Source: a virus (taxonomy: Duplodnaviria; Heunggongvirae; Uroviricota; Caudoviricetes). Taken from it: a stretch of 51,153 bases of DNA. The position numbers are program-made. The stretch is from the IMG/VR virus record IMGVR_UViG_2939521961_000005. One strand, 5' to 3'. Below, one piece after another: positions 3,001-9,000 of the stretch (positions within the stretch are counted from its first letter, which is position 1; every line of letters begins with the position of its first letter).

Positions 3001-6000
3001 CAACTGATTGGCGTCAGGCTGGCTGATATTGGCTGCCTGCATAATTTTCTTTACTTCGTCAGCGGTAACTTTTACCGGTTCTGGTTGTTCAGAATTTTGT
3101 GCGGTATTTGCATTTTGCGGTAAACCTGTGTATGTGCCATTTTTTCGGGCGAAATATTCTTCTTTCGTGATTTCAGTAGCCCCTGCAGCCAGTGCCTTAT
3201 CCAGACCAGAAAGTTTGTTTGCGCGACCGTATTTTTCGCTATCCTTGTCGGTGAAGAGGAAGTAGAACGGCCCTTCACGCTCTACAGATGGTTCGACTTC
3301 CACTTTGCATTCGGTTTTTTCGTTGTCCGGAATTGCCGTTTCCACTGCATCAGTTTCTGGTACTGGCGACGAGAGAGTATCAGTTGCGCTCTGATTTCTT
3401 CCTTCATCTTCAAACACGCCCTTTGTAGTCAGGTATTCAGTAATGTATTTGTTCAGTGCCACAGGGTCTTTGTGAATGTCGATCGGACGTTCACGGACAA
3501 GGCCAAAAATAGTCTGGCGGTCGTAGCGAAGGGCATCAGGCTGTTTGCGCATTGATGCCGAGATACGCTTCCAGTCTTCGCGGTCGTTGTCGATAACTTC
3601 TTTTTTTGCCCAGCGATGGATGCTGCCGTCAATGTTTCCGGCATCCACATCACCAGGCCAGAGAGCGTAGGCCAGTTCGTCATCCAGTGTTTTCCATGTC
3701 TGCTTGTATTCGCGATGAGTGGCAGCAATGACCGGGCTGATTTTTCCTGTTGAATTTTCAGTGTTCTGTTGATTGGCTCTGGCGCGGGCGAGATCAACAA
3801 CAGACGTGTATTTTCCGGTTTCCTTGCGTTCACCTTCGCGACGTTTTTTCCAGATGCGCATCTCTGCCTGAATTTCGGGCCATTTGGCACCAGGCTTACA
3901 TTTATGCTTAACCCACCCGATGGCATGCAGCTTAAGCTCCGGATACATGGCGTTAACTTCTGGCATTTTCATCAACGCTTCAACGATATGTCCGTCGAAT
4001 GTTGCCATGTCTTCCTGCAACAATTCCTGCGCGCTAATCACCATATCAACGGTGATGTTTTCACATGTGTCGAACTTAACCATGACAGCGTTCTGTACTT
4101 CAGGGGCCAGCTTGTCAAAAGTGACGTTCATCGGATCTGATTCAGTCTCAACCGGGACAAAGGAAGCAGACTCCTCATCCCAGCGGTTTTCCTGCATATA
4201 TTCAGCATCCCAGGAATCGAGGGCAGGGCGGGGTATACCGGGTTTATCCTCGCAAACAAGAAATTTATAAGCGCAGTCCTGAGCAGCCGGATAATGTTCC
4301 AGGAATTGCCAGTGAAATTTTGCGCGGGCGCGACGTTCATCACCGGCTTCAATGGCAGTGGCTACAGCGACTGCACCTTCTTCCTTTATTGCCTGTTCGT
4401 CCGGAATGGCGGCGCAAATAAAGACTTTACTCATTTTGTTTTACCTCATTACAGATTTAAGGGTGAACAAATCCCTGCCATTTCTGGCATATAAGAATGA
4501 AATCGGATGTTTATTACGGAACTGTTTTAAAGACCTGCCGGGATTTCGTTATTATCCTGGTGAATAACTTTATCGACAGGGTAACAGTTACCGGGAATTT
4601 TCTGTTCGGTTGCTGCAGTCACACACTCCTGCATTGTCCTGTGAACACTGACTGCAATATCAACTGGCTCTCCGGAAACAAGAAAAACTGTCAGAACAAG
4701 TGCAAATGCTGTATTCATTGCCAGCATCCTTTTTGTATCGGACGTAAACGGGCCAGCATTGAAAGAATGCATATTTTATTTAATAACTCCCGTTCGTGTT
4801 TTCTCTTGTTAATGGCATCTTCAGTAAATACAGGGTTACTGATAGTGACACCAATTTCAAAACAACCTTCAGACGTATTAACGTTTGGTAATAACGTTTC
4901 CATTATCGCGTCCTCAACAATGAATTTTGTGATGCAGTGCCTGGTGCCTCCAGGTGACGTTAACCAGTTAACAATTAACGCCGGATACAGAGAATCCACC
5001 CATAACACTGTTTTTGGTTTTAACTGTTCCGCGTGCGCTCAGCCGCATTCACCGCATCACAAAATTCACTTTAAAAAGGGCGGCAGAGCAGTCACGGAGT
5101 AAAACTGATACCGCCAAACGTCACCAGAAAATTGATAACAGAGGGCGTTGCAGCGGGGTTGTCACTTAAGCGTATGGTCAACCTGACAACCCGGTGTCCT
5201 CAATGGGGGAAGGAATAACCCCGCCATACTTACCGCCGCGCCATTTCGCGGATTGCCACAACCAGAAGCGCACGGTCGAAGAAATTTAACGACAAGACTT
5301 ATATGCAAAGGGATCTCGCCGTGCGCTTTCGTGTTATGCCCTGACTTTTCAGGGTAAATTAACCTGTGGAAACCTGTTTTTACTGGCGCTAATCAGTTAG
5401 CGTTTCTTGCTAACCAGCGATGCGCGCCAGCTTCGGTTTTAAACGTTTTACTTCTGGTATACGTCATCGCGGTAAACGTGCCGTCGTGGTTGGGGAATAC
5501 TCCGCACACCAGAGATTCATTGTTGCCAAGATTGAGCATATCCATGTTGACCTCATTTACCCTTAACGCCGGGTCGCGGAACTAAAAACCTGCTGCGCTG
5601 TTATACAAAGTGTTCCCGCCGTCATGTTCATACGCCTCGGGCTGGCTACTTAACCCCTGACCACTGCCGGGTAACTCGAGGTATTGCCCGACGTTCTGTG
5701 GGGCGAGGTAGGGTGGTATGTAATAAATCTAAAAGTATTTAGTTTTTCAGTCAAGATAAATCTAGATTAATTTAAAAAAAAAGGTCGGCATTGCCGACCT
5801 CAAGTAAAGGACGTGGCGGGTTATAAGTTGAACTGTACACCTTTTGCTACGGCAACAATTTTACACTCTGGTGTAAGTAAGGATGACTGATAGCGTGGAT
5901 TGAGAGGGCTTAAATACACAAGCTTCCCATCAATAACTAATTTCTTTATAGTCATAGATGGTTCATTTTTAAGCGGATCCGGAACTATTACAGCGACGAT

Positions 6001-9000
6001 GCTGCCATTTTTATAACTTTCTCCTGGCCTTAGGATCACAGTAGCACCAACTGGGATACTCGGTGATCCTGATGGGTTATGCATTGTGTCATCAGGCATT
6101 GAAACGGCAAAATCACCTTCCTCGACATCAAAGAATGTGGTGATCCTATCGACATTTCCCATTGTTTTCTCTCCTTTTAAGATTAGGAAAGAAATCGCCT
6201 CACCCCACGAAAGGTAGGGGATCTTGGTGCCTGAGGTACTTTGTACAAAAGATAATTCAGGAGACGATACTCCATATAGGAGATAGGACTCAGTAGTTCC
6301 TAATGCCTGGGCTAACTTACTTAGAGCTTTGCTACCTGGTTCGTTTAGATCTTTCTCCCAGTACCCTATAGTAACCCCAGTCACGCCTGAAAGCTTACCC
6401 AGTTCTACTTGGGTCAGCCCCTTATCTTTTCTAAGTCTCTTAAGCCTGATGCCAAGGCTTTCCATCATTTTCTCCTGCAAATTGAATATAAATTATTTTA
6501 GATTGCATTGACCTAAAAAAAATTATCTTGTAATCTAAAAATACTTAGATTTAGGAGGTAAAATGCGAGTTGATGAACTTGTCCAGTTTTTTGGTTCTGT
6601 TCAGAGGGTTGCCGATTTTTATGGGATAACCCGCGAAGCTATTTACATGTGGCGTAAGCGTCCTGGTGAAATAGTTCCGAAGGGGAGGGCTGCGGAAGCT
6701 GCTGCATACTCCAAGGGGAAATTATCTTTGAACCCAGAACTTTACAAAAAGAAGGATACCACTCAGGGCGAAGGAAAGGGGGATTCATGAAAATCAAACA
6801 TGAGCACATCCGCATGGCGATCAATGCCTGGGCCTATCCGGACGGTGAGAAAGTTCCTGCAGCTGAAATAGCCCGGACTTATTTCGAGCTGGGGATGACG
6901 TTCCCGGAACTGTACGACGACAGCCATCCGGAAGCCCTGGCTCGTAATACCCAGAAAATTTTCCGTTGGCTGGATAAAGACACCCCTGATGCTGTTGAAA
7001 AAATTCAGGCTCTGTTACCGGCGATCGAAAAGGCAATGCCGCCTCTGCTGGTGGCCCGTATGCGCAGTCACAGCTCTGAATATTACCGTGAGATCGTCGA
7101 ACGGAGGGATCGGCTGGTGAAAGATGTGGATGATTTTGTCGCAGCGGCGATCGCCTGGGGCACCCTGACTAACAGTGGTGGTCAGCCTGGTAATGCTGTT
7201 GTCGTGCATTGACCAACAATATTCATGCCGGATTTATTCCGGATGTTCGAGGGTAAAGTTCGGTATCAGATGAGGTGAGTATGGCTAATGCCTGGCTCAG
7301 ATTGTGGCATGACATGCCAAATGATCCCAAATGGCGAACCATTGCCAGGGTCTCAGGACAGCCAATCGCAACAGTGATGGCGGTGTATATCCACCTTCTG
7401 GTGAGTGCGTCACGAAATGTCACGACATGTCACGGCGTGTCACTACGTGGTCACATTGATGTCACGACGGAAGATTTAGCAAGTGCGCTTGATGTGACGG
7501 AAGACGTGATTGATTCAATTTTGCATGCAATGCAGGGGCGAGTTCTGGATGGTGATCTTATTTCCGGATGGGAAAAACGCCAGGTGATGAAGGAGGATAA
7601 CGGTAATGTTTCGCAAACCGCAAAATCCCCGGCAGAGCGCAAGAGAGCGCAGCGGGAGCGGGAAAGACTGCGGAAGCAGAACACTGATTGTCACGATGAG
7701 TCACGACGCGTCACGCATATGTCACGACAAATCACGACAGATACAGATACAGATAAAGAATTAAACCCCACACATAACGCGCGCATGCGCGAGAGTGCTA
7801 CGACCGGTGAGTTGAATGACGCGTCGTTGCAGACAGCCGAACCTGAATACCTGGACGGCCTGAGCGAACCGATCGGGAAATTTCCGATGACTGGAGTCTG
7901 GCAACCGTCGCCGGATTTTCGACAGCGGGCAGCAGTGTGGGGTATGGCTCTGCCTGAGCCTGAGTTTACACCTGCTGAGCTTGCCGCATTCCGGGATTAC
8001 TGGATGGCGGAGGGGAAGGTTTTCACGCAGGTTCAGTGGGAGCAGAAATTTGCCCGCCACGTGCAGCACGTCAGGGCACAGGTAAAACCAGTCAGCAAGG
8101 GGGTAAGCCATGCAGCACCAGGTGGCACCGCATCACGGGCAGTTCAGGAAATCCGGGCTGCACGCGAACAGTGGGAACGTGAAAACGGATTTATCAGCAA
8201 CGGAAACGGCCTGGAAGCTGTGGGAGCTTATGGGGGAGGTGTATTCGAACCGCTGGACTCAGAAGAACGGGGCTGCGCCGTCGAAACTCTGGATTGCTCA
8301 GATTGGCGCGATGACTGAACAGCAAATCCGGCAGATCTGCCGTCGGTGCATGGACCGCTGCCGGGCGGGTGAAACGTGGCCTCCGGATCTGGCTGAGTTT
8401 GTGGCGTTGATTTCGGAGAGCGGGGCAAATCCATTTGGCCTGACGGTGGATGCCGTGATGGAGGAATACCGTCGCTGGAGGAATGAATCCTGGCGGTACG
8501 ACGGGAGTGATAAATACCCGTGGCCACAGCCGGTGCTGTACCACATTTGCCTCGAGATGCGTTCAAAGGGGATTGAGCGCCAGATGACCGAAGGGGAGTT
8601 AAAACGGCTTGTGGAAAGGCAGCTGACGAAATGGGCAAAGCATGTTGGTAATGGCCTCAGTGTTCCGCCAGTCCGGCGACAACTGGCAGCACCCAAACGC
8701 CCGCCAGGGCCAACGCCAATTGAATTGCTGAAACAGGAATATGAGCGCCGGAAGGCGGCCGGTTTTGTCTGAGTTGAGAAGTAATTTTTACCGGGAGGAA
8801 AATTTAATGGAAACCGTTTTTGACGCACTGAAAGCACTGAAAAAAGCCTCGTCGCACGAGATTGCAGCCCGTCTTGAAATCAGCCGTGACGATGCTGTTA
8901 CCGAACTCTGGAAGCTGAAGCGTCGTGGCGAAGCTGATAACAAGGGGTCGATGTGGTGGCTGACGAGTGAGGCAACTGAAGCGGCCCCAAAAACCACTGC

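What the first reader, a model, noticed from the sequence alone, without database searches (positions are those of the whole stretch)
5720..6560. Shared operator motif on both sides of the CI-like repressor gene
Sites of the form ATCTAAAA(A/G)TA(C/T)TTAG occur between the repressor and cro genes (6533-6550, plus the flanking inverted repeat TTTTAGATT / AATCTAAAA) and again downstream of the repressor terminator (5727-5742, plus the palindrome AATCTAGATT at 5758-5767). This gives a lambda-like OR/OL arrangement from sequence alone.
Basis: seen in the sequence. Interest (0 to 1): 0.4.

Follow-up and report, generated by a model that had tools for sequence, protein, structure and literature searches.

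The report
Prophage repressor operators, P22-like layout
The repeated motif is real: it is the set of 18-bp binding sites (three at OR, two at OL) for this E. coli prophage's P22-C2-like repressor and Cro, an ordinary lambdoid genetic switch with a previously undescribed DNA specificity.

Summary
The unit is an 18-bp dyad, ATCTAA-N6-TTAGAT; the family consensus is A(A/T)CTAAG-N4-CTTAG(A/T)T.

- **Sites:** three lie between the repressor and cro genes: OR1 6533-6550, OR2 6511-6528, OR3 6486-6503. Two lie just past the repressor terminator around a leftward promoter: OL1 5727-5744, OL2 5760-5777.
- **Independent scoring:** a weight matrix built only from relatives with 40-69% identical repressors ranks these sites 1, 4, 2, 3 and 6 among all 18-mers of the 51-kb window.
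- **Conservation:** the window's consensus is 141-fold enriched next to repressor homologues in 26 other genomes.
- **Specificity:** among 110 viral contigs that share the same PL leader, only the three with this repressor carry the motif.
- **Independence from cro:** the motif persists where cro is replaced by a Q gene.
- **Closest system:** P22 immC has the same 18-bp format, spacing and promoter overlaps, and the recognition-helix Val is conserved. The half-site differs: CTAAG here, TTAAG in P22.

No paper in the searchable library holds these sequences. I rate it a new member of a known kind, of modest interest.

Side observations: the repressor has Thr in place of the self-cleavage Ser and lacks the Ala-Gly bond. 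PL also feeds a conserved leader RNA, for which one hairpin shows covariation and which is not in Rfam.

The parts
6533..6550 (.). OR1: ATCTAAAAATACTTAGAT, the perfect-arm 18-bp dyad next to cro. It spans the -10 of PR to about +7.
   Evidence: 0 mismatches to the dyad. Top PWM hit of the whole window at 23.9 bits. Relatives and P22 have a site at the same position.
6511..6528 (.). OR2: ACCTAAAAAAAATTATCT, a weak middle site abutting the -35 of PR. It is centred about -41.5 from the inferred PRM start.
   Evidence: 4th best 18-mer in the window at 17.2 bits; 0.03 sites of that score are expected per 51 kb. A site at the equivalent position occurs in L004, L007, L017, L031, L032 and L033 and in P22.
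6486..6503 (.). OR3: ATATAAATTATTTTAGAT, the site next to the repressor gene. Its degenerate outer half supplies the inferred PRM -10.
   Evidence: 1 mismatch. 2nd best PWM hit at 22.1 bits. Conserved position in all relatives.
6508..6536 (+). PR promoter: TTGACC (6508-6513), a 17-bp spacer, then TAATCT (6531-6536). It drives cro-ydaT and the early-right genes.
   Evidence: Read from the sequence. The -35 (GGTCAA on the other strand) is nearly invariant across 10 aligned OR regions including P22. P22 has TTGACT-17-ATAATT in the same register.
6485..6490 (-). Inferred PRM -10 (TATATT on the minus strand). There is no good -35, which suggests an activator-dependent promoter. This part is inferred only.
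   Evidence: Sequence. Relatives have TAGATT/TAGTTA formed by the same operator half. No transcript data.
5821..6465 (-). Immunity repressor gene (214 aa), P22-C2-like: HTH_3 N-terminal domain plus an S24-like C-terminal domain.
   Evidence: Pfam HTH_3 1.9e-12 and Peptidase_S24 5.3e-11. Best solved relative is the P22 C2 N-terminal domain, E=3.6e-7. RefSeq calls it 'LexA family protein'.
6563..6790 (+). cro (75 aa, P22_Cro family), expected to bind the same operators.
   Evidence: Pfam P22_Cro 1.2e-9. Homologous Cro genes accompany most repressor relatives.
5781..5801 (-). Intrinsic terminator of the repressor transcript: a 9-bp stem followed by a T9 run.
   Evidence: Terminator scan and inverted repeat I20.
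5760..5777 (.). OL2: ATCTAGATTAATTTAAAA, a weak site upstream of the PL -35.
   Evidence: 6th best PWM hit at 11.7 bits. The 91% variant has a better match, TTTTAAATTAATTTAGAT. Relatives have a site 33-36 bp from OL1; P22 has one at 35 bp.
5727..5744 (.). OL1: ATCTAAAAGTATTTAGTT, lying in the spacer and -10 of PL.
   Evidence: 1 mismatch. 3rd best PWM hit at 18.2 bits. Identical in the 91% variant while the flanking spacers differ.
5726..5754 (-). PL promoter: TTGACT (5754..5749), a 17-bp spacer, then TAGATT (5731..5726). The -10 is formed by the OL1 half-site. It drives the DUF1391-DicF-dicB-exonuclease operon.
   Evidence: Promoter scan. The same -35 / 4 nt / operator / -10 layout occurs in relatives and in P22. 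Downstream genes.
5546..5720 (-). Conserved PL leader RNA. It is a side finding and not part of the operators.

Best explanation
These are the operators of a lambdoid, specifically P22-immC-like, genetic switch.

**Binding (inferred from homology and conservation).** Dimers of the 214-aa C2-like repressor bind 18-bp dyads through the helix-turn-helix. The consensus is A(A/T)CTAAG-(A/T)4-CTTAG(A/T)T.

**At OR (inferred by analogy).**
- OR1 and OR2 occlude PR (TTGACC-17-TAATCT), shutting off cro, ydaT and replication genes.
- Repressor at OR2 sits about -42 from the repressor promoter, where it can activate it.
- OR3 overlaps that promoter's -10, allowing negative autoregulation and repression by Cro.

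**At OL (inferred by analogy).** OL1 lies within the spacer and -10 of PL, and OL2 lies just upstream of the -35. Together they shut off the leftward operon that carries DUF1391, DicF, dicB and the exonuclease.

**Cro.** The P22_Cro-family Cro is expected to use the same sites with the opposite preference.

**Shown here:** the presence, statistics, conservation, specificity and geometry of the sites, and homology of the proteins.
**Inferred:** actual binding, order of occupancy, activation of PRM, and any OL-OR looping.
For: 1. **Ranking in the window.** A weight matrix made only from the flanks of repressors 40-69% identical (59 unique sites) ranks the window's five sites 1, 4, 2, 3 and 6 of about 51,000 positions.
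2. **De novo enrichment, without using the window.** In relatives' flanks ACTAAG is 51-fold and ATCTAA 20-fold enriched. CTAA-N(d)-TTAG occurs 58 times at d=6 and at most 6 times at any other spacing.
3. **Enrichment of the window consensus.** With up to 2 mismatches it gives 72 hits in 6.5 kb of repressor flanks of 26 relatives, against 10 hits in the other 134 kb. That is 141-fold.
4. **Specificity on a shared backbone.** Of 110 IMG/VR contigs with the same PL leader, only the 3 with a 93-96% identical repressor have hits of at least 12 bits (3-4 each, at the same positions). The other 107 have none.
5. **Tracks the repressor, not cro.** L014, L015 and L021 keep the sites although the divergent gene is a Q antiterminator.
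6. **Phylogenetic footprint.** Between the window and the 91% variant, OL1, the PL -35 and -10, OR1 and OR3 are identical while adjacent spacers and leaders differ.
7. **Protein homology.** The closest solved structure is the P22 C2 DNA-binding domain. P22 C2 uses an 18-bp ATTTAAGATATCTTAAAT operator read by Val33 (PMC5175364). Val is invariant in this family.
8. **Geometry.** OR start-to-start spacings are 22/25 bp here and 23/25 in P22. OL1-OL2 is 33 bp here and 35 in P22. The whole OR region aligns collinearly with P22.
9. **Promoter and terminator scans**.
Against: - There is no binding, footprint or reporter data for this repressor anywhere I could search.
- OR2 and OL2 are weak matches (17.2 and 11.7 bits). 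OL2 is within the range random sequence can reach: the null maximum averages 11.4.
- Only two OL sites are detectable, against three in lambda and P22.
- PRM is inferred from a -10-like hexamer only, and the scan tool did not call it.
- Repressor and Cro co-occur in most loci, so their individual contributions cannot be fully separated by comparison alone.
Confidence: 0.9

Rival explanations
1. The similarity is a by-product of A+T-rich intergenic DNA and shared promoter hexamers, not a protein-binding motif.
For: - The regions are A+T rich.
- The half-site TTAGAT+T doubles as a -10 hexamer.
- A free-running EM collapsed to a generic A/T motif.
Against: - The fixed 6-bp spacing between CTAA and TTAG: 58 occurrences against at most 6 at any other spacing.
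- Dyad symmetry of the sites.
- Scores far above the simulations.
- 107 contigs with the same leader but other repressors have no hit, although their promoter regions are equally A+T rich.
Confidence: 0.02
2. The sites are bound mainly by another regulator (Cro alone, or the CII analogue YdaT) and not by the CI/C2-like repressor.
For: - Cro of the P22_Cro family co-occurs with the repressor in most loci.
- ydaT lies immediately downstream of cro.
Against: - The sites persist in three loci with no cro, where the neighbour is a Q antiterminator.
- The published YdaT site is TTGATT-N6-AATCAA (PMC9986795). It is not found here beyond chance: 2 hits against 2.5 expected, none in OR or OL.
- The operator format matches what the homologous P22 C2 domain reads (PMC5175364).
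Confidence: 0.05
3. The repeated sequences are relics of the recombination joints that swap immunity modules between lambdoid phages and have no regulatory role now.
For: The conserved leader begins right after PL, and immunity-specific sequence begins upstream of it. So the OL region does sit at a module boundary.
Against: - Relics would not keep dyad symmetry, fixed spacing and promoter overlap across repressors down to 40% identity in at least 12 genera.
- Nor would they show the footprint pattern seen between the close variants.
Confidence: 0.02

Closest known systems
Salmonella phage P22 immC: C2 repressor, Cro, OR1-3 and OL1-3
   Same: - 18-bp dyad operators with xxTAAG half-sites and four A/T-rich central bases (PMC5175364).
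- Three OR sites spaced 23/25 bp, against 22/25 here.
- The PR -35 abuts OR2 and its -10 overlaps OR1. The PL -35 is flanked by OL1 and OL2, 35 bp apart against 33 here.
- A terminator follows the repressor gene.
- The repressor N-terminal domain is the best match among solved structures, and Val33 is conserved.
- Cro is of the P22_Cro family.
- The OR regions align collinearly.
   Different: - Only 30% protein identity.
- The half-site is A(A/T)CTAAG, not ATTTAAG. P22 operators score 4-8 bits (OR2 and OL3 negative) with this family's matrix, against 16-23 bits for the window's four strong sites (10.6 for OL2).
- The recognition helix reads GVTGVTIGYW, against GVSNVAISQW in P22.
- No OL3 was found.
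- The repressor mRNA has a short Shine-Dalgarno leader; in P22, OR3 abuts the ATG.
- ydaT takes the place of c1.
- Thr replaces the catalytic Ser, and the Ala-Gly bond is absent.
Phage lambda OR/OL switch
   Same: - Divergent repressor and cro genes with a tripartite OR.
- A second operator at PL beyond the repressor gene.
- An OR2-like site about -42 from the repressor promoter.
- The S24-type C-terminal domain matches the lambda CI C-terminal domain.
   Different: - 17-bp operators of unrelated sequence.
- OL is 2.4 kb from OR in lambda, against about 0.8 kb here.
- There is no N gene or recognisable nut site in this window.
- Two OL sites here, not three.
DicA/DicC and dicBp of the Qin prophage (E. 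coli K-12)
   Same: - The same leftward operon content (DUF1391/ydfA, DicF, dicB) under a PL-like promoter repressed from the immunity region (PMC10448788).
- The DicA helix-turn-helix is about 45% identical to residues 2-65 of this repressor (H77).
   Different: - DicA is 135 aa and has no S24 domain.
- Its proven operator Oc is TTGTTAGTCATAACTAACAA (PMC3441716), a different half-site.
CP-933P switch of E. coli O157:H7 (PaaR2, YdaS, YdaT)
   Same: - Lambdoid OR and OL with shared repeats.
- A YdaT-type CII analogue downstream of cro (PMC8630535, PMC9986795).
   Different: - The repressor is the unrelated 15-kDa PaaR2, encoded with a toxin-antitoxin pair.
- Four 18-bp inverted repeats with consensus GTTTAGTAA (PMC8630535). 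This is not the motif found here.

Membership tests
P22-C2-type repressor/operator system | N-terminal HTH_3 domain homologous to P22 C2, with the DNA-reading Val33 conserved | tested here: met
   phmmer against PDB: 1ADR/2R1J/3JXB, E=3.6e-7 to 6.8e-7 over residues 4-67. Val is invariant in 18 family members and in P22.
P22-C2-type repressor/operator system | 18-bp dyad operators: TAAG-type half-sites separated by four A/T-rich central base pairs | tested here: met
   Family matrix A(A/T)CTAAG-WWWW-CTTAG(A/T)T built from 59 sites. Spacing test. P22 consensus from PMC5175364.
P22-C2-type repressor/operator system | The same DNA specificity as P22 (homoimmunity) | tested here: not met
   Half-site position 3 is C, not T. 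Window sites have 3-6 mismatches to the P22 consensus. P22 sites score 4-8 bits, two negative, with the family matrix. The system is therefore predicted to be heteroimmune; this was not tested biologically.
P22-C2-type repressor/operator system | Three OR sites between divergent repressor and cro genes, overlapping PR and PRM; OL sites bracketing the PL -35 | tested here: met
   Site coordinates and spacings compared with the P22 sequence. OL3 was not found.
P22-C2-type repressor/operator system | Cro of the P22_Cro family | tested here: met
   PF14549, E=1.2e-9.
LexA/CI self-cleaving S24 repressors | Ser-Lys catalytic dyad (GDSM ... KKL) | tested here: not met
   The S24 domain is present and the Lys is kept. 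The nucleophile position reads DDTM (Thr), aligned to GDSM of P22 C2.
LexA/CI self-cleaving S24 repressors | Ala-Gly (or Cys-Gly) cleavage bond in the linker | tested here: not met
   Ala-Ile is aligned to Ala-Gly of P22 C2. Relatives at 42-47% identity mostly keep A-G (or A-D) and GDSM.
Lambda-like OR/OL switch (functional class) | The repressor physically binds the sites, represses PR and PL, and activates PRM; Cro competes for the same sites | not testable with these tools
   Needs EMSA or footprinting and reporter fusions.
Lambda-like OR/OL switch (functional class) | Long-range OL-OR looping by repressor octamers | not testable with these tools
   The OL1 and OR1 centres are 806 bp apart (D1). 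There are no data on oligomerisation.

The most novel reading that the evidence does not exclude
The operators serve a distinct clade of C2-like repressors found in E. coli, Salmonella, Yersinia, Arsenophonus and Symbiopectobacterium. This clade has consistently replaced the self-cleavage Ser with Thr and lost the Ala-Gly bond.

On this reading the P22-style OR/OL switch is not flipped by RecA-stimulated autocleavage. Some other route would do it, such as an unidentified anti-repressor, a different cleavage chemistry, or Cro/YdaT dynamics.

Its PL transcript also begins with a conserved leader RNA, with covariation shown for one hairpin. In these N-less phages that RNA could act in cis on transcription elongation, as HK022 put does.
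Probability: 0.25. Interest if true: 0.55.

Novelty: new member of a known kind. Interest (0 to 1): 0.25.

Why it matters
- **Reach.** It defines the operator code and promoter layout of an immunity type carried by about 9% of complete E. coli genomes: 474 of 5,426 hold most of the region, including O157:H7 and other STEC.
- **Host effects.** In these prophages PL controls the cell-division inhibitors DicF and DicB.
- **Prediction.** Knowing the sites lets one predict superinfection immunity groups among STEC prophages.
- **Experiments.** It also allows design of reporter and induction experiments.
- **DNA recognition.** It offers a natural specificity variant of the well-studied P22 C2-DNA interface (TTAAG to CTAAG, with N32G, S36G and Q37Y in the recognition helix).

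Conceptually it adds nothing new to the lambdoid switch paradigm.

Tried and rejected
- **CP-933P.** I first suspected the already characterised CP-933P switch because of ydaT. The paper shows a different repressor (PaaR2) and repeat, GTTTAGTAA, so this was rejected.
- **DicA operator.** Oc is a different sequence.
- **YdaT site.** TTGATT-N6-AATCAA occurs at chance level only.
- **LexA box.** CTGT-N8-ACAG has one hit at 48598, which is chance level. No annotated anti-repressor is present in the prophage.
- **Unconstrained EM motif search.** It collapsed to a generic A/T-rich profile. I replaced it with explicit site collection.
- **Literature search for six operator strings.** No paper holds them.
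- **Leader RNA.** There was no Rfam hit. Blastn found no similarity to the HK022 PL/put region, P22 or imm21. The single-sequence fold was not better than shuffles (z=0.47). RNAalifold on MAFFT alignments gave a weak consensus, because the 5' arm of the closing helix is out of register.
- **Paper not held.** The King et al. 2011 paper on new antiterminator RNAs was not in the library.

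
Full report
**Context.** The window is a complete lambdoid prophage of E. coli. It is 100% identical to STEC strain E2865 and 99.6% identical to O157:H7 strains over the 1.4 kb queried. The annotated layout runs integrase-excisionase-exonuclease-dicB on the left and replication, Q-like, lysis, head and tail genes and espK on the right. The finding lies in the immunity region, which contains these features:
- A 214-aa repressor at 5821-6465 (-) with HTH_3 and Peptidase_S24 domains.
- A 75-aa P22_Cro-family cro at 6563-6790 (+).
- ydaT at 6787-7212 (+).
- To the left, a DUF1391 gene at 5393-5545 (-), DicF RNA at 5078-5129 (-) and dicB.

**Checking the observation.** Only the AATCTAGATT palindrome is one base off, at 5759-5768. 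As an 18-bp dyad, ATCTAA-N6-TTAGAT matches 6533-6550 with 0 mismatches, and 6486-6503 and 5727-5744 with 1 mismatch each. There is only one other hit with up to 2 mismatches in 51 kb, against 0.89 expected. The scans also find a TTGACT-17-TAGATT promoter on the minus strand at 5754-5726, overlapping the left-hand site, and a strong terminator at 5801-5781 right after the repressor gene. On the plus strand, TTGACC (6508-6513), 17 bp, then TAATCT (6531-6536) precedes cro.

**Comparative test: fetching relatives.** Homologues of the repressor from 96% down to about 40% identity were found, and 28 genomic loci plus four further loci were fetched. They come from Escherichia, Salmonella, Yersinia, Arsenophonus, Symbiopectobacterium, Xenorhabdus, Proteus, Rahnella, Rouxiella, Kosakonia, Enterobacter, Serratia and Kluyvera. 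In nearly all of them, visibly similar dyads such as AACTAAGTTAAGTTAGAT sit upstream of the gene, and in most also downstream.

**Comparative test: numbers.**
- Without using the window, the most enriched hexamers in those flanks are ACTAAG/CTTAGT (51-fold), AACTAA/TTAGTT (23-fold) and ATCTAA/TTAGAT (20-fold).
- CTAA-N(d)-TTAG occurs 58 times at d=6 and at most 6 times at any other spacing from 0 to 12.
- A palindromic weight matrix from 59 unique sites of these relatives, excluding the window clade, was used to scan the window. The best four of all 18-mers are 6533-6550 (23.9 bits), 6486-6503 (22.1), 5727-5744 (18.2) and 6511-6528 (17.2). The sixth is 5760-5777 (11.7). Simulated 51-kb sequences reach a maximum of 11.4 +/- 2.5.
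- In the other direction, the window consensus with up to 2 mismatches hits 72 times in the 6.5 kb flanking the 26 non-redundant repressor genes and 10 times in the remaining 134 kb. That is 141-fold.

**Specificity controls.**
- A scan of IMG/VR for the conserved PL leader (see below) returned contigs with the same backbone but many immunity types. Of 110 with enough upstream sequence, only the three that encode a 93-96% identical repressor have matrix hits of at least 12 bits. Each has three or four, at the OR1, OR3, OL2 and OL1 positions. The other 107 have none.
- In three relatives (L014, L015, L021) the divergent neighbour is a Q antiterminator instead of cro, yet two or three sites remain upstream of the repressor gene. 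The motif therefore follows the repressor.
- Between the window and the 91% variant, OL1, OR1, OR3 and the promoter hexamers are unchanged, while neighbouring spacers and leaders carry several substitutions. The C-to-T change in OL2 moves it towards the consensus and destroys the AATCTAGATT palindrome.

**Anatomy.**
- OR1 is 6533-6550, OR2 is 6511-6528 and OR3 is 6486-6503. Start-to-start spacings are 22 and 25 bp.
- PR has its -35 abutting OR2 and its -10 overlapping the first bases of OR1.
- The outer half of OR3 reads TATATT on the repressor strand (6490..6485), a plausible PRM -10 with no good -35. That would put OR2 about -41.5 from the start, the classic activating position. This part is inference.
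- OL1 (5727-5744) fills the PL spacer and supplies its -10 (TAGATT). OL2 (5760-5777) lies just upstream of the -35, next to the terminator's T-run. No third OL site is detectable.

**What it is like.**
- The repressor's best match among solved structures is the P22 C2 DNA-binding domain (E=3.6e-7).
- P22 C2 binds 18-bp ATTTAAGATATCTTAAAT operators, reading TTAA through Val33 (PMC5175364). That Val is invariant in the family, while neighbouring recognition-helix residues differ: GVTGVTIGYW here against GVSNVAISQW in P22.
- In the P22 sequence the six known operators lie at spacings of 23/25 bp (OR) and 35 bp (OL1-OL2). They have the same promoter overlaps (TTGACT-17-ATAATT at PR; TTGACC-17-TAAATT at PL with OL1 in the spacer and -10). 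The OR regions of the window, eight relatives and P22 align collinearly.
- P22 operators nevertheless score 4-8 bits (two negative) with this family's matrix. This is a different, presumably heteroimmune, specificity (CTAAG against TTAAG).
- The characterised O157:H7 CP-933P switch and the K-12 DicA operator use different repressors and different repeats.
- No paper in the searchable library contains any of six operator strings.
- Among deposited phage genomes, only two induced E. coli prophages carry this repressor. All other phage repressors are at most 37% identical.

**Mechanism.** By homology, repressor dimers at OR1 and OR2 and at OL1 and OL2 block PR and PL. This silences cro-ydaT-replication on the right and DUF1391-DicF-dicB-exonuclease on the left. 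OR2-bound repressor probably stimulates PRM. OR3 mediates autorepression and Cro's shut-off of the repressor gene. Presence, conservation, specificity and geometry are shown. Binding, occupancy order, activation and looping are inferred.

**Verdict.** It is refined to a P22-type layout with three OR and two OL sites. This is an ordinary lambdoid switch with an undescribed specificity, so a new member of a known kind and of modest interest.

**Noticed in passing: the repressor's S24 domain.** It reads DDTM where P22 C2 reads GDSM and lambda CI GNSM (from memory), so Thr replaces the nucleophilic Ser. It also reads Ala-Ile where P22 has the Ala-Gly scissile bond. The Lys is retained. This pattern is shared by all relatives at 50% identity or more, whereas those at 42-47% mostly have the canonical residues. 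No LexA box beyond chance and no annotated anti-repressor is present. How this prophage senses inducing signals is therefore open.

**Noticed in passing: the PL leader RNA.**
- The 175-nt leader between PL and DUF1391 (5546-5720, minus strand) is conserved across many heteroimmune lambdoid prophages. These include Rac of K-12, where it lies between racR and ydaG, phage Tritos, and an Actinobacillus phage.
- It has an invariant roughly 35-nt core, TAAGTAGCCAGCCYGAGGC..GAACATGA.
- A hairpin capped by the conserved loop CAAUACYYCGAGUUA is supported by covariation. 85.6% of cells are paired, 6 of 10 pairs show compensatory changes, the covariation score is 0.215 against 0.105 in shuffles (0/500), and slid controls reach at most 48.6%.
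- A closing helix covaries between sequence classes: CCCGCC/GGCGGG, ACAACGCC/GGCaGUUGU, CAGCAAC/GUUGCUG and GCAACC/GGUUGU.
- The G-U pairs work only on the PL-transcript strand.
- It is not in Rfam and has no sequence similarity to the HK022 put region.
- The core also contains a GAGG...AUG start followed by a 6-22 codon ORF.
- Its function is unknown. A cis-acting antitermination element or a translational control element are the obvious hypotheses.

Noticed in passing
window 5546-5720 (minus strand); also L038 2501-2654 (Rac, K-12), L039, L040, L004, L033, L044-L163: The leader of the PL transcript is conserved across many heteroimmune lambdoid prophages of E. coli, including Rac, and of Pasteurellaceae, Arsenophonus and Symbiopectobacterium. 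The invariant core is TAAGTAGCCAGCCYGAGGC..GAACATGA. Covariation supports a hairpin: 85.6% paired, 6 of 10 pairs compensatory, 0/500 shuffles. A closing helix also covaries between classes. It is not in Rfam and has no similarity to the HK022 put region. It contains a GAGG-AUG start and a 6-22 codon ORF. It could be an antitermination or translational control RNA in these N-less phages.
   Followed up: partly
window 5821-6465 (minus strand), repressor residues ~90-91 and ~125-128: The S24 domain has DDTM instead of GDSM (Thr for the catalytic Ser) and Ala-Ile instead of the Ala-Gly cleavage bond. The Lys is retained. The pattern is conserved in all relatives at 50% identity or more, while relatives at 42-47% mostly have the canonical residues. 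This suggests the repressor is not a standard RecA-stimulated self-cleaver.
   Followed up: partly
window 1-51153: No N-like antiterminator, nut boxA/boxB or annotated anti-repressor is present in this otherwise complete prophage. A DUF1133 protein with a weak Phage_antitermQ match lies at 13778-14320. There is only one LexA-box-like CTGT-N8-ACAG, at 48598-48613, which is chance level.
   Followed up: partly
L014, L015, L021 (Rouxiella, Serratia): Here repressor homologues with intact OR-like operator triplets sit divergently from a Q antiterminator gene instead of cro. These look like cryptic remnants in which a C2-like repressor may directly gate Q.
   Followed up: no
window 5078-5129 (-), 11576-11750 (+), 17102-17294 (+), 17295-17356 (-), 16080-16329 (+), 45149-47764: Rfam finds DicF, sok (next to hokD), STnc100, the anti-GcvB sRNA AgvB and two tRNAs. 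An IS66 element interrupts the tail-fibre gene, the portal gene is annotated as frameshifted, and espK lies at the right end.
   Followed up: no
window 49075-49092: TACTAAAAAAACTTATGC scores 13.3 bits with the operator matrix, the 5th best hit in the window. It lies inside the espK gene at the far end of the prophage. About 0.2 such hits are expected by chance per 51 kb, so it is probably fortuitous.
   Followed up: no
L004 1026-1215 and 2862-3051 (Arsenophonus nasoniae contig): Two copies of the PL leader lie on the same strand 1.8 kb apart. Each is preceded by a promoter/operator-like A+T-rich stretch and followed by a boxA-like CGCTCTTTAAC. This may reflect tandem or mosaic immunity regions.
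   Followed up: no
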